In this document: positions 1,158-35,962 of the stretch, in pieces
Position numbering within the stretch: position 1 is the first letter of the stretch
How the letters are laid out: each line of letters begins with the position of its first letter
Assembly: GCA_009692265.1 (NCBI GenBank)
Contig: SHZM01000009.1
Coordinates: 1-64,000, forward strand
Origin: Gammaproteobacteria bacterium
GTDB taxonomy: Bacteria > Pseudomonadota > Gammaproteobacteria > Ga0077536
DNA length: 64,000 nucleotides
Direction: 5' to 3'
Translations under genes and position numbers: made by a program
The notes under the pieces: generated by a model
The model's input: the letters and a program-made list of their open reading frames with translations, nothing else
The model's database searches: none
Told to the model about the DNA's origin: nothing

Positions 1158-1254
1158 TGGCGGAAGAGGTAGGAGTCGAACCCACCGAACCTGCAATTAG
1201 CAGGATCCACCGGATTTGAAGTCCGGGCACCCCACCGGGAGATGTCGCTCTTCC
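1158..1254 (-). tRNA. selC: tRNA-Sec (selenocysteine tRNA), anticodon UCA, 97 nt
   Basis: Reverse complement reads GGAAGAGCG...GGACTTCAAATCCGG...GGTTCGACTCCTACCTCTTCCGCCA with a long variable arm and the ACTTCAAAT anticodon loop. It is near-identical in blocks to E. coli tRNA-Sec and lies 36 bp downstream of selB on the same strand. Confidence 0.93.
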
Positions 1255-1289: not shown

Positions 1290-3272
1290 TCACGTCGATG
1301 CCCCGAAGATATCGGCGACCTTGCGCCTGAGCTTGCGGACTTGGCCTTGACGCATCGTGAGTCCGATTCGGTCGAAATACTCCAGTACTTCGATTGTCAC
1401 GTTTCGCCCGACTTTACTGCGCTCGCGAAACGCGGCGACGGTGAATGAGTCGCCTTGTTCCGCGCCGACTTGTTCGGCCACGGTCGCGAGGCGATAGAGG
1501 GCCGACGGTAAGTAGAAGCGGTACTTGCTGACCTTGATCAGAACGCCGTTATGCGCGGCACGCTCCAGGAACGGCAACAGAATTTGAATCGTAATCTTGA
1601 GCGGCTCGAGCATGTCATGCGCGGCTGGCGCTTGCAGTCCGTGGTGTTCGAGCAGGCTGCGGACGCGCGGTAGCAGGGCGGCGTCCATCGGTGACAATTG
1701 GCCGCTGTGGCCGGCGAGATGCAGTAAGCCGGCGGTCCGGCGTAAAGTGCCTTGCTGTATCAAGTGGACGATTGCCACGCGCATCAGCGACGCGCTCAAG
1801 GTGAGGCGTTGCCGCAGCGCCGCGTCGTTTAGCCCTGCCTGCGCCGGAAATTCCTGGTGATGACTTGTCACCGCAGTGAGAGTCCCGTCAATGATTTCGG
1901 TCCAGCGCGCCGGGGTGAGCGCCAACACGGCACCATTCGCCAGAGCGATTCGTTCGATCGGAATTGCGCGGGTTAAAGCTTCGATTTCATCCGTAGTGAG
2001 ATCCCACACGCGACAAAACCACCGAAAGTCGACACCGTCCGGTTGTTGTGCCAACAACGACGCCAAAGCGGTAGTGGTTTGCGTGGTCGTCAACGCCGCT
2101 AAGGATTGGGCGCGTTTGCTCCGCGAGGTGCTGCGGATTGCGGGACAGGGGTCGAGAATCGTACCGCCGCCCAAGGTGCGGGTTGCGGCTTGATCACGCA
2201 GCACGAAACGATCGCCATGAACCGCGCAGGCGGGTGCTTCGAGTACGAGCATCGCATACCCCTGTGCACCGGGCGCGAGGCCGCGATCACCCAGCAAGCT
2301 CACCCGACCAGGCAAATCGGCGGCCCCAAGATGCACATGCACTGGAGTGCGATCCTGGAGCGCCTTCGCTTCGCTCGCGAGCAAGTGGAGTTGAACACCC
2401 AGGCGGTTCGCACCGCCGCTGAGTGCGGGATCGATTAACCAATCGCCGCGATGGATTTCGACGCGGCGGAGATCGTTGCTGGCAATGTTAATCCCGCAGC
2501 GTTCGCCGGCGCCTGCGCGGGTGACCGCTTGGTTTTGCGCGTGGATCGAACGCACCCGTACTTCGATCCCCGAAGTGGCGAGGAGCAAGCGGTCATCGAC
2601 TGCCACCATGCCCGAATACGCGGTACCGGTTACCACGCGGCCGGCGCCACCGAGGATGAAACTGCGATCGATCGCAAGGCGAAAGTGTCCGCGTTCGGAG
2701 CGCGCCCGCAATTTTCGGGCCGCACTGATTAGCAAGCCGCGGAGTTCCGCCACACCAACACCCGCCGGGGTCGCAAGCGGTACCACGTTCGCCGCAGCCA
2801 ACGAGGTAGTCGCGAGCAAGGCATGGATTTCTTCTCGCACGTTAGTGAGGCGCTCAGGCGAGACGCGATCAATCTTCGTCAAGGCAACCGCGCCCTGCGT
2901 AATCCCGAGCAGTTCGAGAATCGCGAGATGCTCGCGAGTTTGTGGCATCGGACCGTCGTCGGCGGCGATCACGAGTAACGCGAAATCGATACCGGCGACT
3001 CCGGCGAGCATGTTACGCACGAAGCGCTCATGGCCGGGGACATCGATAAAGCCGATGACGTATTCTGCGTCGGCATCATTAATAGTGTGATACGCGAAGC
3101 CAAGATCAATCGTCATCCCGCGGGCTTGTTCTTCGGGCAGGCGATCGGTATCCACGCCCGTTAGCGCTTTAACCAGTAATGTCTTGCCGTGATCGACGTG
3201 TCCGGCGGTGGCAATTATCACGGCGGCAACACGCCGAGCTGGGCGATGAACTCGCGGGGATCTTCGAGGCAA
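1290..3272 (-). CDS. selB: selenocysteine-specific translation elongation factor SelB
   Basis: 660 aa with the GTPase G1 motif AGHVDHGKT near the N-terminus and a long C-terminal winged-helix extension. It sits between selA and tRNA-Sec. The true start is probably downstream of the ORF-track start, which overlaps selA by 55 nt. Confidence 0.88.
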
Positions 3273-4702
3273 CGCAGATCAAACACCAAGGCACCCTGGT
3301 GAATGCGCCCGATCACCGGCATCGGCAACCCGCGAAAGCGAGCCGCCAGTGTTTCGACCGCGCGACTTGAAACGCGCGCGGTGAGGGGGCGCAGGCGTAC
3401 GCCACAGCTCGGCAGTTGCTCCACTGGCAATGCACCGCTTCCAATTTGACTCTTACACGCGACGAGGTCGATCTCCACATTGCTGCGGAGCGCGGTTTGG
3501 AGCGGCGCGAGCACCTCGCGAGCGGTCGCTTCGATCTCGGCTATCGGTCGCGTGAGTAGGCGCAAGGCCGGGATTACTTTTACCGCGCGTGCGGGATCCG
3601 CATACAGTGGTAATACCGCCCCAAGCGACGCCAAGGTGAGTTTATCCACGCGCAAGGCACGGGTCATCGGATTTTTTTTGAGCTTTTTGATCAGATCAGC
3701 GCGGCCCGCGATGATTCCGGCCTGTGGCCCACCCAGCAATTTATCGCCACTGAACATGACGAGATCCGCGCCGTCGCGGATCGCCTCCTGCACCGTCGGT
3801 TCGCGCGGTAACCCAAAGCGTTCGAAATCAAGCAACGTACCGCTGCCGAGATCGACGACAAAGGGGATCTGCGATTTTCGCGCAAGCGCGGCAAGTTCGG
3901 ATTCCGCGACCGCCGCCGTGAACCCTTCGATACGATAATTGCTGGTGTGGATTTTCATGATGAGGCCGGTGCGAGCATCGATTGCGCCTTCGTAATCACG
4001 CAAGTGCACTCGGTTAGTGGTACCGACTTCGCGCATCAGCGAACCGGCGGCGGCCATGACATCCGGGATCCGAAACGAACCGCCGATCTCAACTAATTCC
4101 CCGCGCGAGACGATCACGCCACGCCTTCGTGCCAAGGTATTGAGCACCAGCATAACCGCGGCGGCATTGTTGTTCACGACCGTCGCGGCTTCGGCGCCGG
4201 TTAGTCGCTGCAGCCAGCTTGCCACGTGGTCATCCCGGTCGCCGCGTTTGCCGGCTTCTAGCGAGTATTCAAGATTCGTAGCCTGGGTCGCCACTGCGGC
4301 GATTGCCTTCAGCGCGGCTTCAGGCAATGGTGCACGACCAAGGTTGGTGTGGAGCACTGTCCCCGTGAGATTGAACACCGGGATCAAGCTCGGTTTAGTG
4401 AGCGATCGCAAGTGCTTGGCAGCGGCCACGGTGAGAGACTCCGAGACTGCTTCCACCGAGGATGCCGCGAGGCCGGCTAATGCCTCGCTGCGATAGCGGG
4501 CGGTCGCCGCGCGTAAGGCGGCAACTACCGGCTCGCGTCCATGCCGATGGATTAGAGCCAGCGTGTCAGCGCGCTGCAGTAACCGATCAATCGAGGGGAT
4601 CTGAAATTTAGGCTCGGTCATCGGGGCTCTGCGCACGGCAACGAAGGAACATGGTGGCGCGCCTTGTGTGGAGTTAGGCCGCATTATATTCTCCAGGCTC
4701 AA
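3218..4702 (-). CDS. selA: L-seryl-tRNA(Sec) selenium transferase SelA (start probably at about 4621)
   Basis: Translation contains FSGDKLLGGPQAGIIAG, the PLP-lysine region of selenocysteine synthase, and is about 465-494 aa long. It sits immediately upstream of selB. The MTEPKFQIPSIDRLL start at about 4621 is more plausible than the ORF-track start. Confidence 0.88.
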   Translation of the reverse strand: MSLENIMRPNSTQGAPPCSFVAVRRAPMTEPKFQIPSIDRLLQRADTLALIHRHGREPVVAALRAATARYRSEALAGLAASSVEAVSESLTVAAAKHLRSLTKPSLIPVFNLTGTVLHTNLGRAPLPEAALKAIAAVATQATNLEYSLEAGKRGDRDDHVASWLQRLTGAEAATVVNNNAAAVMLVLNTLARRRGVIVSRGELVEIGGSFRIPDVMAAAGSLMREVGTTNRVHLRDYEGAIDARTGLIMKIHTSNYRIEGFTAAVAESELAALARKSQIPFVVDLGSGTLLDFERFGLPREPTVQEAIRDGADLVMFSGDKLLGGPQAGIIAGRADLIKKLKKNPMTRALRVDKLTLASLGAVLPLYADPARAVKVIPALRLLTRPIAEIEATAREVLAPLQTALRSNVEIDLVACKSQIGSGALPVEQLPSCGVRLRPLTARVSSRAVETLAARFRGLPMPVIGRIHQGALVFDLRCLEDPREFIAQLGVLPP

Positions 4703-5409: not shown

Positions 5410-7110
5410 ATGTTTTGGTTGATCCTCACCCTTCTCGGCGTCCTCATGGCGGCACTTCCACAGGTGTTTCCGCCGCGAATCCCACCTGCCGTAACCCGCA
5501 TCGCGGGCATTGCACTCGCGGTGTTAGCCTTCAGCGCGACGTCTTTTATCGTCATTGATTCAAACTCCGTCGGCCATCTAAAGCGGGTGTATTTCGGCAA
5601 CGCAATGCCGCCGGGGCGTGTAATCGCGATGCGCGGCGAGAACGGCCCGCAAGCCGAAGTATTGCCACCAGGCATGAACCTGCGGCCCTTTCTGAATGTG
5701 TTCTACGATATCGATGAATTCCCGGTTACGGATATTCCGTCCGGCAGCTATGGCTTGTTGACGGCGCGCGATGGACGCCCACTCAGCGACGGCGAATTCC
5801 TGGCCAAGGGGTGGCGTGAGGAAGACTTCGAAAAGATGCTCGATGCGGAATATTTTCTTAAGCATAACGGTTCGCGCGGACCGCAGCTCAGTGTTCTTAA
5901 GCCAGGGAAGTACCGCATCAACTCGTATCTATTCGATGTGAAGATTCTGCCTTCGATTGAAGTTCATGCCGGTGAAGTCGCGGTGATCAAATCCAATGTG
6001 CGTGAAAGCGATGATTGTCCGTTGCCGCAGCTGCACGGAGATAGCGGCAGCGAGGGCGGGTTGGTCGTGCCAATCGTCAAGAAAGGCTGCATTGGTGTGT
6101 GGGCCGAAGCGCTGCTGCCGAATCGGTATTATCTCAATGCGCTGGCCTATTCGGCGACGATTATTCCGACTCGCGTCCAGACGTGGACCTATAAAGGCGG
6201 CTACACCCGGCGGCAAATCGATTTAGTCGTCGGTCAGGACGGTAAAATCGAACAGCGCGAAGCACAAGCCACCGAGGTACCAGTGCCGGAAGACGCGGCC
6301 GATTCGGCGGTGGGGCTTACCGTGGAAGGTTGGCGCGTGCCATTGGAATTGCGCGCGTTGGTCCAAGTGGAACCGGAAGATGCGCCACGAGTTGTCGCGT
6401 CGGTCGGCACGTTAGCCGATGTCGAAGATAAAATTATCACCCCCGCAATCCGCAGCGTGATCCGCAATGAAACTGGACGCCCCCCTGATCCCGAGCATGG
6501 TATCGAGGGGACTCGGGTGCTGGATCTCATTACAAAACGTGCCGAGCTGGAGCGCACGATCGAGCGCGCGATCATCCCCGAAGGCCGTAAGGCCGGGGTG
6601 ACAATCAAGGAAGTCCGGTTTTCCGATCCGGTAATTCCGCCCGAGTTGTTACTCGCGGGACAACGTAAGCAACTCGCCGAGCAATTGCGCAATACCTACA
6701 TCGAGGAGAAAAAGGCGCAAGAGGAGCGCATCGACACCGAAAAAGCGCGGGCCACCGCAGATCAGCAAGGAGAGCTTGTACGCGCCGAAATCGCGGTACA
6801 GGTGGCCAACCAAACGAAGGCCAAGTTGCAGCTGGAAGGCGAGGGCGAAAAGCTACGCTTGACCGAAATCGCGTTGGGGCAAAAAGCGCAGACCGAGGTA
6901 TTGGGTCAGGAACGGGTCTTGCAGCTTGCGATGTTAAAAGAAATCTTAGCCGCCGCGTCCATCAATCCAGACCTGGTCAAAGTACCCACCGTGCTCGTGC
7001 AAGGCAGTGACGCGAATAATTTGACCGGCGCGGCGGCGGTGTTGGGATCCAGCAATATTGTGCAGTTGCTGCAACAGGCGCGATCCAGTGAGGCCGCTGG
7101 TAAGCAGTAA
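5410..7110 (+). CDS. SPFH/band-7 (flotillin-like) membrane protein with C-terminal coiled coil
   Basis: N-terminal transmembrane helices, a central beta-rich domain, and a long Glu/Lys/Ala/Gln-rich coiled-coil segment (EEKKAQEERIDTEKARATADQQGEL...). AGGAGAAAG ribosome-binding site precedes the ATG. Confidence 0.4.
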   Translation: MFWLILTLLGVLMAALPQVFPPRIPPAVTRIAGIALAVLAFSATSFIVIDSNSVGHLKRVYFGNAMPPGRVIAMRGENGPQAEVLPPGMNLRPFLNVFYDIDEFPVTDIPSGSYGLLTARDGRPLSDGEFLAKGWREEDFEKMLDAEYFLKHNGSRGPQLSVLKPGKYRINSYLFDVKILPSIEVHAGEVAVIKSNVRESDDCPLPQLHGDSGSEGGLVVPIVKKGCIGVWAEALLPNRYYLNALAYSATIIPTRVQTWTYKGGYTRRQIDLVVGQDGKIEQREAQATEVPVPEDAADSAVGLTVEGWRVPLELRALVQVEPEDAPRVVASVGTLADVEDKIITPAIRSVIRNETGRPPDPEHGIEGTRVLDLITKRAELERTIERAIIPEGRKAGVTIKEVRFSDPVIPPELLLAGQRKQLAEQLRNTYIEEKKAQEERIDTEKARATADQQGELVRAEIAVQVANQTKAKLQLEGEGEKLRLTEIALGQKAQTEVLGQERVLQLAMLKEILAAASINPDLVKVPTVLVQGSDANNLTGAAAVLGSSNIVQLLQQARSSEAAGKQ

Positions 7111-9802: not shown

Positions 9803-9887
9803 TAGTACTCCCCCCGTTTAAGAAATTTGACTTTCAACCGCCCGCATTATGGTCCGAAATGACAGCGTTATGCACCCTCAGCTCAGT

Positions 9888-10052
9888 GCAAATTTGTTCT
9901 CGACATCTTCCCACTTTAAAAAAAGGGGGACCGAGGGGGATTTATCTTAATACGGCGCACCGCAAATCCCCCCTACCCCTTTTTCAAAGCGGGGAAACAA
10001 CAACGCAGCACTGTCGTTGAAGTTTCTCGGAAAATTTCCGAGAACAAATCAG
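9888..10052 (+). repeat. MITE-like repeat element, copy A (about 165 bp, with terminal inverted repeats)
   Basis: Near-identical in reverse complement to 34745..34915. Terminal inverted repeats are aaatttgttctcg and cgagaacaaat; flanking imperfect direct repeats are ccctcagctcagtgcaa and ccctcagctgcagtgcaa. It is intergenic between the metallo-beta-lactamase-fold gene start and the MFS gene stop. Confidence 0.75.
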
Positions 10053-10076
10053 CCATGACCCTCAGCTGCAGTGCAA

Positions 10077-11258
10077 TTAAGCAGCGAACCGGCGGGTTCT
10101 CGTCACCGCAAGCCCAAGGGTCGCGAACGCCGCGAAGGCAGCGCCCAGCGCGAATGTCGCGGCTGGCCCGTAATGATCCCAGGCCAGGCCCGCGAGCACA
10201 CTGGCCACTAGCACTGCTATTCCGCTCATGAGATTGAATACCCCGAACGCGGTGCCAAGTAAGTCGGGTGGCGCCGCATCGGCGACGAGCTTGCTTAACA
10301 GGCCCTGGGTCAAGCCCAGGTGGATTCCCCACAGTGCCGCGCCGAGCAAGACCATCGCCGGATTAGCCGCGATCGCCAATACCCCGTCGGCAGCGATTAG
10401 AAACAGCAGCCCGATGATTAATAAGCCGCGCGGTTTTAGGCGATCGGCCGCAACCCCGGCTGGGTAGGCCACCGCAGCATAGACTACGCTCATCACGACT
10501 AACACGCTCGGTGCCCACGCGAGATTAAGCCCGACGCTGTGCGCGCGAAGGAGCAGAAAAGCCTCGCTGAATCGCGCCAGGGTGAACACTATCCCGAGTG
10601 CGACCACCCACCAGTAGCGCCGAGTTAAGCGAGTTGCCGCGTGCCAGAGGATCGATTTTCCGGTGGAGAGTGGGCGCGCAGCGGGCTCCGCGACACCGAA
10701 ACAGAGGACCGCGACCGACAACAGCGCCGGGATCACGGCAGCCCACAGTGCGAGCTTGAGATCGTTCGCAAGCATCAGCATCAACCCGATCGCGAGCAGT
10801 GGTCCGATGAATGCGCCGACCGAATCGAGCGCCTGACGTAGTCCAAAGGCCGCGCCGCGCTGTGTAAGTGGCGTCACTTCTGCGATCAGTGCATCGCGCT
10901 GCGCGCCGCGGATCCCCTTGCCGATCCGATCGAGCAGGCGCGCGGTAAACACCCATTCCACACTCGCCGCGAGCGGAAAAATCGGTTTCGACAGCGCTGC
11001 CATGCCGTAGCCGATGACCGCAAGTAATTTACGTTTGCCGAGATAATCACTGAGCACACCGGAGAACACTTTGACCATCTGTGCAGTCGCCTCCGCGGTC
11101 CCTTCGATGACACCGATCACGGCCATGCTCGCGCCCAGGCTGTTCGCAAGGTACAGCGGCAACAAGCTGTGCACGAGTTCCGAGGAAGCGTCCATGAACA
11201 GGGACACGAAACCGAGTGCCCACACGGTGCGGGGCAGGCGGGCATGGTTCGCAGTCAC
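10077..11258 (-). CDS. MFS transporter
   Basis: 393 aa with 12 predicted transmembrane segments and typical MFS loop motifs (GKRKLL..., DRIGKG). Confidence 0.75.
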   Translation of the reverse strand: MTANHARLPRTVWALGFVSLFMDASSELVHSLLPLYLANSLGASMAVIGVIEGTAEATAQMVKVFSGVLSDYLGKRKLLAVIGYGMAALSKPIFPLAASVEWVFTARLLDRIGKGIRGAQRDALIAEVTPLTQRGAAFGLRQALDSVGAFIGPLLAIGLMLMLANDLKLALWAAVIPALLSVAVLCFGVAEPAARPLSTGKSILWHAATRLTRRYWWVVALGIVFTLARFSEAFLLLRAHSVGLNLAWAPSVLVVMSVVYAAVAYPAGVAADRLKPRGLLIIGLLFLIAADGVLAIAANPAMVLLGAALWGIHLGLTQGLLSKLVADAAPPDLLGTAFGVFNLMSGIAVLVASVLAGLAWDHYGPAATFALGAAFAAFATLGLAVTRTRRFAA

Positions 11259-29323: not shown

Positions 29324-30520
29324 ATGACTCATCACCACACGCACTCCAACTTGAAGTCGCTGGGGATCGACCCGGTGCGCTTCGAACGTTTAGCTGCACG
29401 AGTTACGCAGGACCTCGACTGCGGTCGCTACAACGGTGCCGCGTTAATCGTGGCTCGGCATGGTGAGATAGCGCTTGATTTATGCGCGGGCTTTGCCGAT
29501 CGCGCCACGAATCGCGCACTCGAACGCGATTCGATCTTTCATTTGATGTCGCTCAGCAAAGCCTTGACCGCGATCGTCGCGTTACGACTTATCGAAGACG
29601 GGGTGTTTTGCTTAACGACACCGATCGCGGACGTGATCCCGGAGTTTGGCCGGGCTGGCAAGGAAGCGATTAACGTCTATCATCTTCTCACGCAAACCGG
29701 CGGCTTGCCGATCGATACTCCCGGCGCGGCCATCGATGTCATCGCCAACCTCGAACGCTATGCGGCGTGGACCTTCGATAAGGCGGCGAGCTGCAAGCCC
29801 GGTACGCAGGTTGCGTATTCGGTGCTCGTCGCGCACTCGGTGTTGGGGCTGTTCATGGAACGTGCGAGCGGGAAACCCTTTGTCGAGTTAATGGATAGCC
29901 TGCTGTTTGAGCCACTCGGCATGCGTGATACCGCTTACGGACCGCGCCCGGATTTAATGGCGCGCCGGTGTCCGCTGGCACCGGCAGCCTATTTGTCCGA
30001 GACGAAGCATCAAGCCGCGCACGATCTCGCGCTGACCCACATCGAACGCATTACCGGCTATTCGACCTACCCAGGATCAGTCGCGCCGGGCGGTGGTGGA
30101 TTTTCCACCGCGCACGACATTCATCGCTTGGCCGAGATGTTGCGTAACGGTGGTGAATTCGACGGCGCGCGGATTTTATCTCCCGCCACTTTGGATCTGG
30201 TTGCGCGCAACCATACCGGGGAGATGCCCAACCAGATCTTCAAAATTCTGTTTGCGAATCGGCATTGGGTGGAATGTCAGGCGAACCTTGCGCTTGGTTT
30301 CTGGGGTCGTGGCACCACGCCAATGCCCGGCCCGTTCGGCGATCTCAATTCCGCGCGCACCTTCGGCGGGATCGGTCGCGGGACCACCTTGTTCTGGATC
30401 GATCCCGATCTCGATATGACCCTGGTGTTGTTGACGACCGGCTTGATGGACGAAGGCGACAACTTCGTGCGCTATTCGACATTGTCGAATTTGGCGGTGA
30501 CGTCGATCGTCAATCGGTAG
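29324..30520 (+). CDS. serine hydrolase of the beta-lactamase/PBP family (class C-like)
   Basis: S-x-x-K active-site motif in HLMSLSKALTA; 398 aa. Confidence 0.75.
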   Translation: MTHHHTHSNLKSLGIDPVRFERLAARVTQDLDCGRYNGAALIVARHGEIALDLCAGFADRATNRALERDSIFHLMSLSKALTAIVALRLIEDGVFCLTTPIADVIPEFGRAGKEAINVYHLLTQTGGLPIDTPGAAIDVIANLERYAAWTFDKAASCKPGTQVAYSVLVAHSVLGLFMERASGKPFVELMDSLLFEPLGMRDTAYGPRPDLMARRCPLAPAAYLSETKHQAAHDLALTHIERITGYSTYPGSVAPGGGGFSTAHDIHRLAEMLRNGGEFDGARILSPATLDLVARNHTGEMPNQIFKILFANRHWVECQANLALGFWGRGTTPMPGPFGDLNSARTFGGIGRGTTLFWIDPDLDMTLVLLTTGLMDEGDNFVRYSTLSNLAVTSIVNR

Positions 30521-30562: not shown

Positions 30563-33500
30563 TCACTGCTCCGCAGCCGCGCGCGGCACCCGAAACCACG
30601 CGGCATACAGCGCCGGCAGGAACAGGAGGGTCAGTACCGTGGCGGCGATCAGTCCACCCATGATCGCGACGGCCATCGGGCCGAAGAAGACGCTGCCGGA
30701 CAATGGGATCATCGCGAGCACGGCCGCGAGCGAGGTTAACACGATTGGCCTGAAGCGGCGCACGGTCGCTTCGACGACGGCGTCGAACGGTGCGCGTCCC
30801 TGCGCAAGATCCTGGCGGATCTGATCGATGAGAATGACGCTGTTGCGCATGATCATGCCGAACAGTGCAATCGTGCCAAGCATCGCGATAAAGCCGAACG
30901 GCTGGCGGAACAGTAGCAGGAAGACGGCCACGCCGATGATGCCAAGGGGGGCGGTGAGAAACACCATCGCGGTTTGCGAGAAACTCTTCAGTTGCACCAT
31001 CAGTACGGTTAACACCACCAGAATCAAAAATGGCATGCCGGCCATCACGCTCGCTTGGGCTTTGCCCGAGTCGGCGACCGTGCCGCCGAGTTCGATGCGA
31101 TAGCCGCGCGGTAACGCGGCTTCGATCCGCGCCAGCGCCGGCGCCAGCATGGCGACGACTTCCGGCGGTTGCATGCCGGAATAGATGTCCGCGCGAACGG
31201 TGATCGTCGGGACGTGGTTGCGTCGCCATAGAATGCCGTCTTCGAAGCGGTACTCGAGCTTGGCAACCTGCGCCAACGTGATATTGGTGCCGCTCGCGGT
31301 CGGGATCGCGAGACTGCCCAGCAGTTCGATTCGTTGGCGCTCGTGTGGCGGGCCACGCAGCACGATGTCGATCAGTTCATTGTCTTCGCGAAAAGTCGTC
31401 GGCATTACGCCATTGGTCGCCGCGGCCACTGCCATTGCGACCATTTGCGAGCTTACGCCAAGGCTGCGCGCGCGATCCTGATCGAGCACAATGCGCAGCA
31501 CCTTTGACTGCTCGGCGGTATCAAGGTGAATGCCGGCCGCATGGGGATTGTCACGCAGGGCCGCAGCTACCTTCTCGGCTTCGAGGCGGATGCCGTCGCG
31601 GTCTGGACCGGACACGCGGTACTGCAATACATAACCCACCGGCGGTCCGTTCTCGATCCGATTGACCCGCCAGCGCAGGTCCGGGAACGTGGTTGGAAAC
31701 AGTGCGATGAGATGCGCGCGCACCTGCTCGCGCGCGACGAAATCACGCGTGTTGATCACGAATTGCGCGAAACTCTGGGCGGGGAGTTGTTGGTCGAGCG
31801 GCAGGATGAAGCGTGGCGCGCCGCTGCCGATGTAGGCGGCATAACTGTCGACGCCTTCTAGTTTGGCCAGAATCTCTTCCAGCCGCGCGGCGGCCAGGTC
31901 GGTCTGCGCGATTGAGGCACCTTCCGGGAGCTTCAAATCGACCAGCAGTTCGAGCCTGACCGAGTCCGGAAAGAATTGCTGCGGTACTTTACTGAACAGC
32001 ACCAAGCTCGCCGCGAACACCGCTGCCGTGGTCACGATCGTCAGCCACCGATACCTTACGCAGAACTGCACGAGCGCGCGAAAGCGGTTATAGAAAGACG
32101 TGTGATAGACCGCGTGTTCATCATGCGCGACGCCGTCCGAGGACAAGCCCTTCTCAGGCAGGAGCGCATAGCCGAGCAGCGGCACGAACACCACCGCCGC
32201 GACCCAGGACAGTAGCAGGGCAATAACGGTCACTTGAAAGATCGCGACGGTGTATTCGCCGACCATGCTTTTAGCGATCACGATCGGCAGGAAACCAGCC
32301 GCGGTGATGAGGGTGCCGGACAGCATCGGAAAGGCTGTCGAGGTGTAGGCAAAACTGGCGGCTTGAAAGCGATCGAAGCCCTCTTCGAGCTTCACCGCCA
32401 TCATCTCCACGGCAATGATGGCGTCGTCGACCAACAGCCCGAGCGCAATCACGAGCGCCCCGAGTGAAGTTTTGTGCAAGCCGATATGCAAGTAATGCAT
32501 CGCCGCGAAAGTCATGGCCAGCACCAGCGGAATGGACAGCGCGACGACCAGACCGGTGCGCACACCGAGTGAAAGAAAACACACCAGCAACACGATGACC
32601 ACGGCTGCCGCCAGCGCCATCACGAACTCAGTAACCGAATCACGCACCGCGAGTGGCTGGTCGGCCAGGCGCGCCAAGCTCATGCCGAGTGGCACATCCT
32701 GATTCAGGCGTTCGAACTCGAGGTCGAGACGCTGGCCAAGCTGGATGATGTCGCCGCCCTTCTCCATCGACACCGCAATGCCGATCGCAGGTTGCCCATT
32801 GAAACGCAGACGCGGCGCCGGCGGATCCTGATAGCCGCGATAGACAGTGGCAATGTCGCCAAGCCGGAACGTGCGGCCGGCATATTCGATCGGCAGGTTT
32901 TCCACGTCCTCGACCGTGGTGAAGCTGCCCGAGACGCGCGCGTAAATCTTGTCGGTGCTGGTGTCGAAGGAGCCCGCAGTGACGATGCCGTTTTGCTCAG
33001 CGAGAACGTCCATGAGCACCTGCGCGGGGATGCCAAGCTCGGCGCGCCGCGTATTGGCGATGTCGACGAAAATTCTTTCTTCCTGCAGACCGATGAAATT
33101 GACCTTGGCGACATCGGCAATCCGGAGCAGGCGGTCGCGCACGCGCTCGGCGTATTCCTTGAGCTCGGCATAGCTGAAATCCGCGCCTTGCAGCGCGTAA
33201 ATATTGCCGAAGGTATCGGCGAACTCGTCATTGAACGAGGGGCCGATGACACCCGCGGGCAGCGTGTGCCGGATGTCAGAGACTTTTTTGCGTGCCTGGT
33301 AGTAGTTCTCCGGCATCGCGGCGGCCGGTCCATCCTCGCGAAAGATGATAAAAATCTGGGATTCGCCTGGACGCGAGTAGGAGCGCAGGTAGTCGAGCGC
33401 ATTGAGTTCCTGCAGCTTTTCCTCAATTTTTTCGGTAACCAAGCGGTCGACTTCATCGGCCGTCGCGCCTGGCCAGAGCGTGCGCACTACCATGATTCGA

Positions 33501-33634
33501 AAAGTGAAAGGCGGATCCTCGGACTGGCCGAGGTGAAAATAGGCCCACACGCCACTCAAGCCCAACAGCAACATGAAATAGCTTACAAGCGCCCGATTAG
33601 CGAGCGCCCAAGCACTCAGGTTGAAGCGTGACAT
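30563..33634 (-). CDS. multidrug efflux RND permease (AcrB/HAE1 family)
   Basis: 1023 aa with 12 predicted transmembrane segments and two large periplasmic loops; the N-terminus is AcrB-like. Confidence 0.85.
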   Translation of the reverse strand: MSRFNLSAWALANRALVSYFMLLLGLSGVWAYFHLGQSEDPPFTFRIMVVRTLWPGATADEVDRLVTEKIEEKLQELNALDYLRSYSRPGESQIFIIFREDGPAAAMPENYYQARKKVSDIRHTLPAGVIGPSFNDEFADTFGNIYALQGADFSYAELKEYAERVRDRLLRIADVAKVNFIGLQEERIFVDIANTRRAELGIPAQVLMDVLAEQNGIVTAGSFDTSTDKIYARVSGSFTTVEDVENLPIEYAGRTFRLGDIATVYRGYQDPPAPRLRFNGQPAIGIAVSMEKGGDIIQLGQRLDLEFERLNQDVPLGMSLARLADQPLAVRDSVTEFVMALAAAVVIVLLVCFLSLGVRTGLVVALSIPLVLAMTFAAMHYLHIGLHKTSLGALVIALGLLVDDAIIAVEMMAVKLEEGFDRFQAASFAYTSTAFPMLSGTLITAAGFLPIVIAKSMVGEYTVAIFQVTVIALLLSWVAAVVFVPLLGYALLPEKGLSSDGVAHDEHAVYHTSFYNRFRALVQFCVRYRWLTIVTTAAVFAASLVLFSKVPQQFFPDSVRLELLVDLKLPEGASIAQTDLAAARLEEILAKLEGVDSYAAYIGSGAPRFILPLDQQLPAQSFAQFVINTRDFVAREQVRAHLIALFPTTFPDLRWRVNRIENGPPVGYVLQYRVSGPDRDGIRLEAEKVAAALRDNPHAAGIHLDTAEQSKVLRIVLDQDRARSLGVSSQMVAMAVAAATNGVMPTTFREDNELIDIVLRGPPHERQRIELLGSLAIPTASGTNITLAQVAKLEYRFEDGILWRRNHVPTITVRADIYSGMQPPEVVAMLAPALARIEAALPRGYRIELGGTVADSGKAQASVMAGMPFLILVVLTVLMVQLKSFSQTAMVFLTAPLGIIGVAVFLLLFRQPFGFIAMLGTIALFGMIMRNSVILIDQIRQDLAQGRAPFDAVVEATVRRFRPIVLTSLAAVLAMIPLSGSVFFGPMAVAIMGGLIAATVLTLLFLPALYAAWFRVPRAAAEQ

Positions 33635-33645
33635 CGCACCAAGGT

Positions 33646-34744
33646 CTACAAAGCCACTTTGGCGGAACGTTCGATTGTCTGCACCGCCATGCCGGCGACC
33701 AGGCGGTGCACACCCGCACTGACCACGCGGTCGTCTACGCTAAGCGGACCGCTGACCAACACCGCGTCATCGAAATAGCGCAACACTTCGACCGCAACCG
33801 CTTCGACTGTTTCGCCCTCGGCCCCGCGCACAATTCGCCACACGGTGGGGCGTTCCGGACCGAGGCTGCCAACAGCGGAGGCGGGGAGTCGAAAGCTATC
33901 CCGACTCGCGGCCGCACTAACGATGACCGAGGCGGTGGCGCCGAGCTCGACGTGTTCGTCGGGCGCGAGGAGGGTAATACGTGCGCGATGCGTGCGGGTG
34001 GCGCGATCGGCTTGCGGATCGAGATCGCGGATCTTTCCTTGATAACGCTGCCCTGGGTTGCTCAAGAGTTCAACTTCAAGCCGTTCGGCCTGGCGCAGCA
34101 AGTCGAGGTGTCCTTCCGGCACGCTGACATGCACCTCGCGCTCGCCGTCAGCCGCGAAGCGCACGACCGGTTGCCCGGCGGTGACGACGTTGCCCGGCTC
34201 GGCCAGGATCTGAGTCACCACGCCTGCCGCATCGGCGGTTAGAGAAGTGTAATGCGATTGGTTGTCGGCTAGGCTGTACGCCGCCTGCGTCTGGTCGCGG
34301 CGAGCCTGTGCCAGGCGCGTCGTGTTCATCCGCAGATCGAGCGGCGATTGTCCGACGAAGCCACCTGCGCGCAATTCTCGATAGCGCTGCTCCTCAGCCC
34401 GGGCTAGACCCAAATCTGCCTCGGCGGCAGCCACCGTGGCGCGGGCCGCGGCGAGGTTCAAACGCGCGTCCTCGGGATCGAGCACCGCGAGCACGGTGCC
34501 GGGCTCGACATGCGCGCCCATGTCGACGTGGCGCGCGGCGATTTTGCCGGCTATGCGGAACGCAAGATCAACTTCAACTCGTGCGTGAATCGATCCCGGC
34601 AGGATTTGCACATCGCTAAGCCCTGATAACGCCTGTGGTGCTTCGACAACGACCGGGCGTGGGCGCGGCACTGGCGACTCCGAGTGGGTGCAGGCGGTCA
34701 GCACGAAAAGCGCGGCGAGTGCGAGGCGGTGGCGATGCCGATAG
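33646..34744 (-). CDS. efflux RND periplasmic adaptor lipoprotein (start codon unresolved)
   Basis: Lipobox LAALFVLTAC followed by a membrane-fusion-protein fold. The ORF-track N-terminal extension (to 35058) runs through the MITE-like element and is not real. No canonical start was found just upstream of the lipobox. Confidence 0.6.
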
Positions 34745-34915
34745 CACGACTGGTTTGTTCTCGGAAATTTTGCGAGAAGTTTCGACGACCGTGCTGCGTG
34801 GTTGTTTCCGCCCGTTGAAAAAGGGGGGGTGGGGATTCGCGGTGCGCCGTATAGGATAGGTCCCCCTCGGTCCCCCGTTTTCAAAGGGGCAAGATGTCGA
34901 GAATAAATTTGCCCT
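34745..34915 (-). repeat. MITE-like repeat element, copy B (inverted relative to copy A)
   Basis: Reverse complement matches 9888..10052 over nearly the full length. It is flanked by a perfect 11-bp direct repeat gatgccgatag (34734-34744 and 34916-34926), and has terminal inverted repeats tttgttctcg and cgagaataaa. Confidence 0.75.
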
Positions 34916-35017
34916 GATGCCGATAGGGCATGGCCTTCTTCAATCCGAATAGGAACGGTATGGTAATGGAATTCGGCGACGAATAGCCAAACCCGACCGC
35001 GCGCCGAGATACGTGTT

Positions 35018-35962
35018 TTACGCCGCCCTAAAATCCCGCACTGGGCCTTTCGGCACAATCCGCGACGGGTTAATACTTTCGTGACTGCGGTAGTAATGGC
35101 CCTTGATGTGCTCGAAATTCACGGTCTCGGCGACGCCGGGTACGGCATACAATTCGCGCGTATAACGGGCGAGGTTCGGATAATCGATGATCCGTTTCAG
35201 ATTGCATTTGAAATGCCCGTGATACACGGCGTCGAAGCGGACTAACGTGGGGAACAGACGCCAATCGGCTTCGGTGATGTCGGAACCGCATAAATACTTC
35301 GTTGCGCCGAGTTGCGCTTCGATCGCATCCAAGGTGGCGAATACTTCGGCGACGGCTTCGTCATATTTATCTTGCGCGCTCGCAAACCCCGCGCGATATA
35401 CGCCGTTGTTGAAGGTGTGGTAGATGCGTTCATTCCAGGTATCGATATTCGGGCGGAGGGCGAGGGGATAGAGATCGCTAATTGTTTTAGTCGAGATCGC
35501 ATCGAATTCGGTATTCAGCATGCGGATCAATTCGGAGGATTCGTTGTTGACGATGGTCCCCGTCACTTTATCCCAGAGCACCGGCACCGTGACTCGACCC
35601 GTGTAACCTGGGTTCGCATGCTGGTAAATCTCATAGAGATGTGCCGCGCCATGGATCGGATCCGCGATACAACCGGGTTCCTCCGCGAACGACCAGCCCT
35701 TAGTGCCCATGAACAAGCTGACAACCGACAGCGAGATCGCGTGCTCCAACCCCTTCAGGGCGCGATAGATGAGTACGCGATGCGCCCAGGGACAGGCTAA
35801 CGAGACATACAGGTGGTAGCGATTGGCGAGGGCTGGGAAGCCAGAACTGCCATCGGCGGTGATGCGATCCCGAAAGGCGGTTTCAGTGCGCACAAACGCC
35901 CCGCCGGCCGCCTTGGTGTCATACCATACGTCGTGCCAAACGCCGTCTACTAACATGCCCAT
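35018..35962 (-). CDS. yqjG: glutathionyl-hydroquinone reductase (Xi-class GST, YqjG/PcpF family)
   Basis: 314 aa with the active-site CPWAHR motif and a GST C-terminal domain. Confidence 0.75.
   Translation of the reverse strand: MGMLVDGVWHDVWYDTKAAGGAFVRTETAFRDRITADGSSGFPALANRYHLYVSLACPWAHRVLIYRALKGLEHAISLSVVSLFMGTKGWSFAEEPGCIADPIHGAAHLYEIYQHANPGYTGRVTVPVLWDKVTGTIVNNESSELIRMLNTEFDAISTKTISDLYPLALRPNIDTWNERIYHTFNNGVYRAGFASAQDKYDEAVAEVFATLDAIEAQLGATKYLCGSDITEADWRLFPTLVRFDAVYHGHFKCNLKRIIDYPNLARYTRELYAVPGVAETVNFEHIKGHYYRSHESINPSRIVPKGPVRDFRAA

What the first reader, a model, noticed from the sequence alone, without database searches (positions are those of the whole stretch)
34734..34926. Second MITE-like copy sits inside the 5' region of the RND adaptor gene, bounded by a perfect 11-bp target-site-like duplication
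Copy B is flanked by gatgccgatag on both sides, a direct repeat typical of a target-site duplication. It lies immediately upstream of the lipobox (LAALFVLTAC) of the membrane-fusion-protein gene. The ORF-track start for that gene (35058) reads through the element, and no canonical start codon remains between the element and the lipobox. The insertion may therefore have displaced or altered the promoter or start of the RND pump operon (30563-34744).
Basis: partly seen in the sequence, partly recalled or inferred. Interest (0 to 1): 0.55.

Follow-up and report, generated by a model that had tools for sequence, protein, structure and literature searches.

The report
Small transposon splits efflux-adaptor gene start
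A 172-bp non-coding mobile element has jumped into codons 2-5 of a drug-efflux adaptor gene, cutting its start codon off from the rest of the gene; this is an ordinary kind of gene disruption, and it has misled the public annotations of this gene.

Summary
GATGCCGATAG occurs at 34734-34744 and 34916-34926 and brackets a 171/172-bp element. That element is 85% identical to an inverted copy at 9884-10057, which has its own 10-bp flanking repeat. Both copies have imperfect 19-bp terminal inverted repeats starting with 5'-CA.

The decisive test was removal in silico. Deleting the element plus one repeat (182 bp, 3n+2) recreates a minus-strand ORF starting at ATG 34931 behind a Shine-Dalgarno-like GAAGAAGG. 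It encodes MPYRHRHRLALAALFVLTAC..., 367 aa. That is the length of most close orthologues, and it aligns with the 23 full-length orthologues compared without N-terminal length difference beyond 1-2 residues.

The element therefore sits inside the gene: the duplicated target is codons 2-5. Today the old ATG gives a 16-codon peptide, and the gene body has no usable start upstream of the lipobox. The adaptor, and probably the pump, is most likely null or hypomorphic. Both ORFs are otherwise intact, so the event looks recent.

The repeat length and CA termini fit an IS4-family-type parent, but no transposase was found. No other copy turned up in public collections. The element's core is a long hairpin module that also occurs in unrelated contigs. 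Verdict: a new member of a known kind, of low to moderate interest.

The parts
34745..34916 (.). MITE-like element, copy B (172 bp; 171 bp if the terminal G at 34916 is counted as duplication). It is non-coding, 55% G+C, and lies inside the adaptor gene.
   Evidence: About 85% identical to copy A. Bounded by direct repeats. Excision restores the ORF. No Rfam match.
34734..34744 (.). Gene-proximal copy of the target-site duplication GATGCCGATAG. On the minus strand it reads CTATCGGCATC, part of codons 2-5 (P-Y-R-H) of the ancestral gene.
   Evidence: The orthologue L061 carries CTCGTCGGCATC at the same place.
34916..34926 (.). Distal copy of the target-site duplication, still attached to the ancestral ATG.
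34745..34763 (+). Left terminal inverted repeat of copy B: CACGACTGGTTTGTTCTCG.
   Evidence: 13 of 19 positions match the reverse complement of the right end. The seed TTTGTTCTCG/CGAGAATAAA was found.
34898..34916 (-). Right terminal inverted repeat of copy B; its reverse complement is CAGGGCAAATTTATTCTCG.
34811..34888 (.). Internal G5/C5 palindromic hairpin module of copy B: CCCGTTGAAAAAGGGGG ... TCCCCCTCGGTCCCCCGTTTTCAAAGGG.
   Evidence: Inverted repeat of 17 nt, 88% complementary. Folds at -34 and -40 kcal/mol, z = -1.4 and -1.9. Homologous modules occur in L084, L110 and L085.
34929..34931 (-). Ancestral ATG start codon of the adaptor (MFP) gene, now 182 bp further from the gene body and out of frame with it.
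   Evidence: Aligns with the orthologue ATGs.
34934..34941 (-). Shine-Dalgarno-like GAAGAAGG upstream of the ancestral ATG.
   Evidence: Read from the sequence. Orthologues have GGAG at the equivalent place.
34881..34931 (-). Residual 16-codon ORF from the ancestral ATG (MPYRHQGKFILDILPL*), ending at a TGA inside the element.
34882..34884 (-). TTG in the frame of the gene body, overlapping the TGA of the leader ORF (TTGA). It is the only conceivable re-initiation site and would add about 45 residues ahead of the signal peptide.
   Evidence: No SD lies upstream of it (read from the sequence).
33646..34733 (-). Body of the RND periplasmic adaptor (membrane fusion protein) gene after the insertion point. 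Lipobox LTAC is at 34701-34690, Cys codon 34692-34690.
   Evidence: TIGR01730 RND_mfp scores 205 bits against a cut-off of 94.9. 56-69% identical to the aligned 367-370-aa orthologues.
30563..33634 (-). RND permease gene, 11 nt downstream of the adaptor stop codon, fully intact.
   Evidence: Pfam ACR_tran. 82% identity with 0 gaps over 1020 aa to the orthologue in L061.
34948..34967 (-). Upstream block ATTACCATACCGTTCCTATT, conserved with orthologue loci. A putative promoter or operator that remains next to the ancestral ATG.
   Evidence: Alignment A3. Its function is inferred only; no sigma-70 consensus match was found.
9884..10057 (.). MITE-like element, copy A (174 bp), inverted relative to copy B. 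It is intergenic, lying 9 nt after the stop codon of an MFS transporter gene and upstream of an AttM-like lactonase gene.
   Evidence: TIR of 20 nt, 80% complementary, 15 of 19. The module folds with z = -5.1 and -3.6.
9874..9883 (.). Target-site duplication of copy A (ACCCTCAGCT), first copy.
10058..10067 (.). Target-site duplication of copy A (ACCCTCAGCT), second copy.

Best explanation
A non-autonomous, MITE-like transposable element of 172 bp carries no gene. It has imperfect 19-bp terminal inverted repeats beginning 5'-CA and an internal long-hairpin module.

It was inserted by a transposase supplied in trans, through staggered cuts 10-11 bp apart, into codons 2-5 of the lipoprotein adaptor gene of a two-gene RND efflux operon. 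Repair of the stagger duplicated the target CTATCGGCATC.

The consequences are as follows:
- The SD, the ATG and the first five codons are now 182 bp (3n+2) away from the gene body and out of frame with it.
- Ribosomes starting at the old ATG stop after 16 codons, inside the element.
- The body has no start codon that could supply a signal peptide.
- The adaptor is therefore most likely not made as an exported lipoprotein. The downstream permease, 11 nt after the adaptor stop and with only a weak GGTG SD, probably loses translational coupling as well. Transcripts must also pass a hairpin of -34 kcal/mol.

Shown here: the repeat structure, the second copy, the restoration of the ORF by excision, and colinearity with orthologues.

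Inferred: the transposase family (IS4-type, from duplication length and termini), action in trans, loss of expression, and that the event is recent (perfect duplication, no secondary lesions).
For: Structure of the element:
- Perfect 11-bp repeat in copy B and 10-bp repeat in copy A, each exactly at the ends of the A/B homology.
- TIRs match at 13/19 and 15/19 positions; binomial P at p=0.25 per position is 8e-5 and 1e-6.
- No Rfam family matches.

Evidence that it is an insertion into the gene:
- Excision of 182 bp gives ATG-MPYRHRHRLALAALFVLTAC..., 367 aa.
- Most of the closest homologues are 367 aa. The 23 full-length ones aligned have the same N-terminal layout, with the Cys in the same column and only 1-2-residue length differences in four of them.
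- The DNA alignment of the excised site with three orthologue loci lines up the upstream block, the ATG and the target sequence.
- The adaptor belongs to TIGR01730.

Evidence that it is real and recent:
- The permease is 82% identical to an orthologue with no gaps.
- The same insertion is present, at 99.99% or 100% identity, in separate Logan assemblies of two sequencing runs, SRR8561391 and SRR8561390. An ENA assembly (ERZ1305449) carries the same 341-aa gene call and the same 347-bp gap after the GST gene.

Evidence on the parent family:
- IS4-family subgroups make 8-13-bp duplications, and most have 5'-CA ends (PMC2266710, Table 1).
Against: - No empty-site allele of this locus is on record. 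The closest intact orthologue is only about 70% identical, so the pre-insertion state is reconstructed, not observed.
- Only two copies are visible, because only 64 kb of the genome is available. No transposase or full-length IS with matching ends was found.
- No further copy turned up in any search: exact-pattern scans of genome, metagenome and viral collections, BLAST against plasmids and phages, and a translated profile search of 1.84 billion proteins.
- Both genes are still perfectly intact. This is also what one would see if they were still expressed and under selection.
- Loss of expression is not measured.
Confidence: 0.85

Rival explanations
1. The gene is still functional. After the 16-codon leader ORF terminates, ribosomes re-initiate at the overlapping in-frame TTG (TTGA, 34884-34881). 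This would make a 412-aa adaptor whose signal peptide is preceded by about 45 element-encoded residues. Alternatively the element acts as a regulatory leader that tunes pump expression.
For: The frame of the gene body is open through the whole element, and a TTG overlaps the leader stop codon. Both the adaptor and the permease ORFs are free of secondary lesions. The insertion allele is the assembled consensus in two sequencing runs.
Against: - No SD precedes the TTG (read from the sequence).
- The lipobox Cys would move from residue 20 to about residue 65. That is far outside the N-terminal position it holds in every aligned orthologue.
- None of the homologues aligned carries such an extension.
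- The open frame through 172 bp of a 55% G+C element may well be chance. Two of the three minus-strand frames of copy B are open.
Confidence: 0.1
2. The region is native coding sequence: the adaptor really has a 100-120-residue N-terminal extension. This is how the NCBI record reads it (MSR13654.1, 490 aa, started from ATT 35118), and it is also what the mechanical ORF 33646..35058 implies.
For: An uninterrupted reading frame runs from 35118 to 33646.
Against: - The extension has no counterpart in any aligned homologue.
- It would start at a non-canonical ATT directly after a stop codon and would overlap the 3' end of the GST-like gene.
- 172 bp of it is a repeat found, inverted, in an intergenic region 25 kb away.
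- It would bury the signal peptide.
- Excision restores a canonical gene.
Confidence: 0.02
3. The insertion is an assembly artefact: a repeat-induced mis-join in a metagenome-assembled genome.
For: The sequence comes from a MAG. Repeats are classic sites of mis-assembly.
Against: - The junctions are identical in Logan contigs assembled separately from two runs (14,891 bp at 99.987% identity and 1,502 bp at 100%). An ENA assembly carries the same truncated gene call and spacing.
- A mis-join would not create a perfect target-site duplication whose removal restores the reading frame.
- Copy A is only 85% identical, so reads would not collapse between the two copies.
Confidence: 0.02
4. The element is not IS-derived. 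It belongs to a class of palindromic repeats (REP/BIME-like or similar) spread by another mechanism, and the outer 'TIRs' are merely part of a larger palindrome.
For: The core is a long hairpin (z = -5.1 in copy A). Homologous cores occur in unrelated contigs without the same arms, sometimes in tandem arrays.
Against: - Both window copies have clean 10-11-bp duplications of unrelated target sequences. That is the signature of DDE-type staggered-cut integration and is not, to my knowledge, produced by REP/RAYT elements.
- There is no GTAG-type head sequence.
- The termini are conserved between the copies, while the flanks are unrelated.
Confidence: 0.08

Closest known systems
IS4-family-derived MITEs (for example MIC231, mobilised by IS231 in the Bacillus cereus group) and the IS4 subgroups ISH8, IS231 and IS4Sa
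   Same: Short non-coding element with TIRs. The target duplication is about one helix turn (10-11 bp here; Table 1 of PMC2266710 gives 10-12 for IS231, 10 for ISH8 and 8-10 for IS4Sa). The termini begin 5'-CA: CAC/CAT at the left end and CAG at the right end.
   Different: No matching transposase or full-length IS was found, so the link rests on two terminal features only. The right end is CAG, not CAT. The host is a Nevskiales-like gammaproteobacterium. The IS231 TIR signature (CAT-------AA--TAA) is not evident. ISAs1 (from my memory of ISfinder: duplication 8-10 bp, ends CAGGG) is an equally loose fit for the right end.
Correia elements (NEMIS) of Neisseria and ERIC/IRU elements of enterobacteria
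   Same: Elements of 100-170 bp with TIRs, able to fold into a long hairpin. They are inserted in or next to genes, are co-transcribed with them, and are known (from my own knowledge) to alter expression of neighbouring genes.
   Different: Correia elements duplicate TA and have 26-bp TIRs. There is no sequence similarity here, and the duplication is 10-11 bp. This copy interrupts a coding sequence, whereas those elements typically sit in an untranslated region.
IS or MITE insertional inactivation of efflux-pump genes
   Same: A mobile element inside an efflux operon that separates the translation signals from the gene body. In principle it is reversible by precise excision between the duplicated target copies.
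   Different: The well-known clinical cases (from my own knowledge) mostly involve full-length IS elements in repressor genes, which switch pumps on. Here a MITE hits the structural adaptor gene, in an uncultured environmental bacterium.
Unnamed G5/C5 hairpin repeats seen in L084, L110, L085, L101, L068, L069 and L083
   Same: The internal ~90 nt of the element is 72-76% identical over 79-92 nt to the L110, L085 and L084 sequences. The shared layout is CCCCCTTTGAAAAAGGGGG, then GGGGGATTT-loop-AAATCCCCC, then CCCCCTTT-loop-AAAGGGGG. Translated, these repeats give spurious ORFs of the type PPFEKGGSGG...NPPGPLCQRG (P0123, P0126).
   Different: Those loci lack the outer arms and TIRs of the window element. 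One is a tandem array with a 162-bp period. I found no name or description for them: no Rfam match and no paper containing the sequences.

Membership tests
MITE (miniature inverted-repeat transposable element) | Small (under about 500 bp) and without coding capacity | tested here: met
   172 and 174 bp. The translated frames have no full-length homologue among 1.84 billion representative proteins and none in a composite word-index search.
MITE (miniature inverted-repeat transposable element) | Terminal inverted repeats | tested here: met
   Copy A has 20 nt at 80% complementarity. The ends match at 15/19 positions in A and 13/19 in B. The repeats are imperfect.
MITE (miniature inverted-repeat transposable element) | Target-site duplication of a length characteristic of the family, with a different sequence at each copy | tested here: met
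   Copy B has GATGCCGATAG (11 bp, or 10 if the G belongs to the element). Copy A has ACCCTCAGCT (10 bp). Both are perfect and unrelated to each other.
MITE (miniature inverted-repeat transposable element) | Multiple dispersed copies in the genome | tested here: inconclusive
   Two copies in 64 kb. The rest of the genome is not available. No further copy was found in public collections.
MITE (miniature inverted-repeat transposable element) | Evidence of insertion: an empty site | tested here: inconclusive
   No empty-site allele is on record. However, excision in silico restores a gene colinear with the orthologues at both protein and DNA level.
MITE (miniature inverted-repeat transposable element) | An autonomous partner IS with the same ends | not testable with these tools
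   No transposase-bearing copy lies in the window.
IS4 family (as the source of the mobilising transposase) | Target duplication of about one helix turn (8-13 bp) | tested here: met
   10 and 10/11 bp, compared with Table 1 of PMC2266710.
IS4 family (as the source of the mobilising transposase) | 5'-CA termini (CAT in the ISH8 and IS231 subgroups) | tested here: met
   Left ends are CAC (B) and CAT (A). The right ends read CAG on the complementary strand. This matches CA, and matches CAT only in part.
IS4 family (as the source of the mobilising transposase) | DDE transposase with the YREK motif | not testable with these tools
   No transposase gene is associated with the element in the available sequence.
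RND periplasmic adaptor (membrane fusion protein), TIGR01730 | Profile match above the curated cut-off | tested here: met
   205 bits against a cut-off of 94.9, covering residues 48-357.
RND periplasmic adaptor (membrane fusion protein), TIGR01730 | N-terminal lipoprotein signal peptide with a lipobox, as in the orthologues | tested here: met
   Met only in the excised reconstruction: MPYRHRHR-LALAALFV-LTAC, with the Cys at residue 20 in the same column as all aligned orthologues. In the present-day sequence no start codon provides it.
REP/BIME-type palindromic repeats (RAYT-mobilised) | Short GTAG-headed palindromes inserted without a target duplication | tested here: not met
   Clean 10-11-bp duplications at both copies. 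No GTAG head is present (read from the sequence). The defining features are taken from my own knowledge.
Correia (NEMIS) and Tn3-derived TIME elements | TA duplication with 26-bp TIRs (Correia); 5-bp duplication with ~38-bp Tn3-type TIRs (TIME) | tested here: not met
   The duplications are 10-11 bp and the TIRs about 19 bp with different sequence. The defining features are taken from my own knowledge.
Any Rfam RNA family | Covariance-model match | tested here: not met
   No match at the gathering threshold in the region. At E<=1, copy B has no match and copy A only chance-level miRNA hits.

The most novel reading that the evidence does not exclude
The ~90-nt core of the element may be one instance of a widespread and apparently undescribed G5/C5 long-hairpin module. 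I found the module in unrelated metagenomic and viral contigs as single copies, as a 162-bp tandem array, and here inside a TIR- and duplication-bounded carrier. If so, MITE-like carriers such as this one would show how the module spreads, and the module might have a function of its own, for example as a bidirectional terminator or a protein-binding cruciform.

A second, smaller possibility: the insertion works as a reversible off-switch of the pump, through precise excision between the 11-bp repeats.
Probability: 0.2. Interest if true: 0.5.

Novelty: new member of a known kind. Interest (0 to 1): 0.25.

Why it matters
For this genome it corrects the gene model. All three gene calls on record miss the insertion and mis-start the gene:
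- the PGAP protein MSR13654.1 (490 aa) reads through the element from an ATT codon;
- the 341-aa call in the ENA and Logan assemblies lacks the signal peptide;
- the mechanical 470-aa ORF also reads through the element.

The real state is an adaptor gene interrupted at codon 5, so this RND pump should probably not be counted as functional in this organism.

More generally, it is a clean worked example of how a reading frame that stays open through a small repeat can hide a disruption from annotation pipelines. It also defines a MITE with an unusually long 10-11-bp duplication from a poorly sampled gammaproteobacterial lineage.

The side observation, that the core hairpin module recurs in unrelated contigs, may be worth a dedicated survey.

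Tried and rejected
**Census of the element**
- The left-TIR 18-mer in genome contigs gave 34 hits. All were single chance matches in unrelated taxa, and none carried the core motif.
- The central pattern in metagenome contigs gave 0 hits.
- The right-TIR 19-mer gave 23 hits. All are chance matches of about 20-25 nt; the two longest, which I inspected, lie in low-GC sequence.
- BLAST against plasmids and phages gave no match.
- A composite six-frame query to the word-index protein search scored nothing. It was probably swamped by its own design, so this is a weak negative.
- A profile of one reading frame against 1.84 billion proteins found only partial hits to hairpin-repeat ORFs.

**Empty site**
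- The 90% cluster of the adaptor contains only the 341-aa and 490-aa calls of the interrupted allele.
- Contigs carrying the exact GST neighbour all carry the insertion.

**Extending beyond the window**
- Look-ups of edge genes gave nothing, or only a 2-kb contig.

**Promoter and terminator scan**
- The consensus scan found nothing in or around copy B. Near copy A it found only a weak terminator-like stem over the duplication and left terminus.

**Folding**
- The whole-element fold is not better than shuffles (z = -0.08 and -0.93). Only the core module of copy A folds significantly well.
- I did not test covariation of the module, because its stems are invariant G/C runs and would be uninformative.

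**Literature**
- Searches by sequence strings found no paper.
- The Siguier et al. FEMS review was not available, so the ISAs1 comparison rests on my memory.
Full report
**1. What is in the sequence**

The 11-mer GATGCCGATAG occurs at 34734-34744 and again at 34916-34926. Between the two copies lies a 171/172-bp sequence. It aligns at about 85% identity, in inverted orientation, with 9884-10057. These are the only two copies in the window.

Copy A has its own perfect 10-bp flanking repeat, ACCCTCAGCT, at 9874-9883 and 10058-10067. It is unrelated in sequence to the repeat of copy B. In both copies the A/B homology stops exactly at these repeats.

Both copies have imperfect terminal inverted repeats of about 19 bp: CAYGRCTGRTTTGTTCTCG at one end, and CAGKGCAAATTTRTTCTCG on the other strand at the other end. 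They match at 15 of 19 positions in A and 13 of 19 in B.

By comparison with copy A, the last G of the 11-mer probably belongs to the element terminus (...CTG). The duplication is therefore 10 or 11 bp.

A perfect 11-mer repeated at 150-250 bp is not in itself rare in this window: there are 8 such pairs against 2.45 in shuffles. The weight of the evidence lies in the coincidence with the homology boundaries and in the result of section 2.

**2. The decisive test: excision in silico**

Removing the element plus one repeat copy (182 bp = 3n+2) yields, on the minus strand...GAAGAAGGCC ATG CCC TAT CGG CAT CGC CAC CGC CTC.... This encodes MPYRHRHRLALAALFVLTAC..., a 367-aa protein with a textbook lipoprotein signal peptide: a basic n-region, a hydrophobic core and the lipobox L-T-A-C.

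A search with this reconstruction returned 489 homologues. Most of the closest 120 are exactly 367 aa long. In an alignment of the 23 full-length ones I compared:
- each starts with Met followed by about 19 residues and the Cys in the same column;
- the only N-terminal length differences are 1-2 extra residues in four of them;
- none has an N-terminal extension.

At DNA level the excised sequence aligns with three orthologue loci through a conserved upstream block (ATTACCATACCGTTCCTATT, 34967-34948), the ATG and the first codons. In L061 the target itself is recognisable: ATGCCTCGTCGGCATCGCC against ATGCCCTATCGGCATCGCC.

I tested this and it is not met. The adaptor matches TIGR01730 at 205 bits, against a cut-off of 94.9.

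**3. Where exactly the insertion sits, and what it does**

The duplicated target corresponds to codons 2-5. The element is therefore inside the coding sequence. It lies downstream of the SD-like GAAGAAGG (34941-34934), the ancestral ATG (34931-34929) and the conserved upstream block.

In the present-day sequence:
- The old ATG opens a 16-codon ORF, MPYRHQGKFILDILPL*, ending at TGA 34883-34881 inside the element.
- This stop lies upstream of all the long G/C runs of the element. It therefore does not depend on the homopolymer lengths being called correctly.
- The frame of the gene body happens to be open through the element. This is why the mechanical ORF runs to 35058.
- In that frame the only start-type codons before the Cys codon (34692-34690) are three. 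TTG 34884 has no SD, overlaps the leader stop as TTGA, and would place about 45 extra residues before the signal peptide. GTG 34704 and CTG 34701 lie four and three codons before the Cys.

My inference is that no exported, lipidated adaptor is made, or very little. The permease gene starts 11 nt after the adaptor stop, with only GGTG as an SD, and has probably lost translational coupling.

Transcripts must also cross the module hairpin, which folds at -34 kcal/mol on the sense strand. It is not a canonical terminator, and the consensus scan reports none.

The permease is 82% identical to an orthologue with no gaps over 1020 residues. The adaptor body is colinear with its orthologues, and the duplication is perfect. 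The event is therefore recent, or the genes are still under selection.

**4. It is not an artefact**

- The same junctions are present in a 14.9-kb Logan contig of run SRR8561391 (99.987% identity).
- They are also present in a 1.5-kb Logan contig of a second run, SRR8561390 (100% identity through the whole insertion).
- An ENA assembly (ERZ1305449) shows the same truncated gene call and the same spacing.
- No intact (empty-site) allele is on record. The 90% cluster holds only a 341-aa call starting at GTG 34671 and the NCBI protein MSR13654.1.
- MSR13654.1 is 490 aa long. It reads through the element from an ATT codon directly after a stop codon, and it overlaps the GST-like gene. Both public gene models are wrong in different ways.

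**5. What kind of element it is**

It has four hallmarks of a MITE: small size, no coding capacity, TIRs, and target duplications of consistent length at unrelated targets.

A 10-11-bp duplication is unusually long. It matches the roughly one-helix-turn duplications of the IS4 family. Table 1 of PMC2266710 gives 10 bp for ISH8, 10-12 for IS231, 8-10 for IS4Sa and 10-13 for IS4. It also notes that ISH8-type elements occur in proteobacteria.

The element's 5'-CA termini (CAC/CAT and CAG) fit that family's usual 5'-CA ends. ISAs1 is a looser alternative; from my memory of ISfinder it has duplications of 8-10 bp and CAGGG ends.

I could not test membership, because no transposase or full-length IS was available.

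Searches for further copies all failed:
- exact-pattern scans of genome, metagenome and viral collections gave chance hits only;
- BLAST against plasmids and phages gave nothing;
- translated searches gave no full-length hit.

The family may be restricted to this poorly sampled lineage. Homologues of the adaptor are annotated as Panacagrimonas, Solimonas, Sinimarinibacterium and Nevskiaceae MAGs. These negatives are limited by the need for exact matches.

**6. A side finding**

The central ~90 nt of the element is a long imperfect palindrome built from G5/C5 blocks. Its layout is CCCC-TTTGAAAAA-GGGG, then GGGGGATTT-loop-AAATCCCCC, then TCGG, then CCCCC-TTTT..AAA-GGGG. It folds significantly better than shuffles in copy A (z = -5.1 and -3.6) but not in the more degenerate copy B.

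Homologous modules, 72-76% identical over 79-92 nt, occur in unrelated contigs:
- L084 has four copies, three of them within a 162-bp tandem array;
- L110, L085 and L101 each have one;
- L068, L069 and L083 have half-modules.

Their outer arms differ from those of the window element. Translated, they give the spurious ORFs P0123 and P0126. I found no Rfam family and no paper containing the sequences. I did not pursue this further.

**7. Verdict**

The finding is ordinary in kind, a new MITE and a gene disruption. It is useful as an annotation correction and has a modestly interesting side lead in the recurrent hairpin module. Interest is 0.25. Novelty: new member of a known kind.

Noticed in passing
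window 33646-35118 (minus strand): The public gene models for the adaptor are both wrong. NCBI MSR13654.1 (P0121, 490 aa) starts at ATT 35118 directly after a stop codon. It reads through the MITE and overlaps the 3' end of the GST-like gene. The ENA/Logan call (P0001, 341 aa) starts at GTG 34671, downstream of the lipobox.
   Followed up: yes
window 34811-34888 and 9908-9996; L084 2860-3500; L110 12586-12672; L085 1625-1700; L101 ~5500-5580; L068 7811-7850; L069 5025-5056; L083 12-45: The MITE core is a G5/C5 long-hairpin module: CCCCCTTTGAAAAAGGGGG, then GGGGGATTT-loop-AAATCCCCC, then CCCCCTTT..AAAGGGGG. It recurs, 72-76% identical over 79-92 nt, in unrelated metagenomic and viral contigs with different flanks. 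It matches no Rfam family, and I found no paper that contains the sequences.
   Followed up: partly
L084 2957-3496: A tandem array (period 162 bp, 3.1 copies, 84% matches) of a unit containing that module. The gene caller read it as a 173-aa protein (P0123). A gene with a 23S_rRNA_IVP domain lies about 1.1 kb away on the opposite strand.
   Followed up: no
L075 11356-11520 and L080 327-490: An 81-bp tandem repeat containing AAATCCCCCTCGG[TC]CCCCCTTAAA.ATAAGGGGGA lies inside a 151-aa lysine-rich ORF of a viral contig. So the same hairpin motif also turns up within an apparently coding repeat.
   Followed up: no
window 10068-10078 versus 9884-9894: The flank just outside copy A's duplication (AATTGCACTGC, directly after the MFS gene's TAA stop) closely resembles the element's own right end (AATTTGCACTG). 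This could be chance, a target preference, or the footprint of an earlier copy. Copy B shows nothing similar.
   Followed up: no
L110 12560-12700: The module in L110 is flanked by CAGCCTGATTTGTT on the left and ATTTGCCAGG on the right. By eye these resemble the window element's termini (CATGGCTGATTTGTT and ATTTGCCCTG). It may be a shorter relative of the same MITE family. BLAST did not detect the arms.
   Followed up: partly
window 34948-34967; L059 ~5950-5990; L061 ~3825-3865; L063 ~5950-5990: A conserved block lies upstream of the adaptor ATG in the orthologues. There it includes an inverted repeat of 5-7 bp (CCAGTTC-N12-GAACTGG in L061; CCAGT...ACTGG or CAGT...ACTG in the others), which may be an operator or a 5'-UTR hairpin. 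The inverted repeat is degenerate in the window. The upstream gene also differs: GST-like here, luciferase-like monooxygenase in the orthologues.
   Followed up: partly
window 30563-34931 and loci L059, L061, L063: The adaptor and permease form a two-gene unit with no outer-membrane-factor gene, both here and in three of the four distinct orthologue loci where the downstream gene was called. The next gene downstream in the window is a convergently oriented beta-lactamase-family gene (29324-30520, plus strand).
   Followed up: no
window 1162-1254 (minus strand): A tRNA-Sec gene (Rfam RF01852, 64 bits), with a 660-aa ORF (1290-3272, minus strand) immediately upstream of it. The ORF was not examined.
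   Followed up: no
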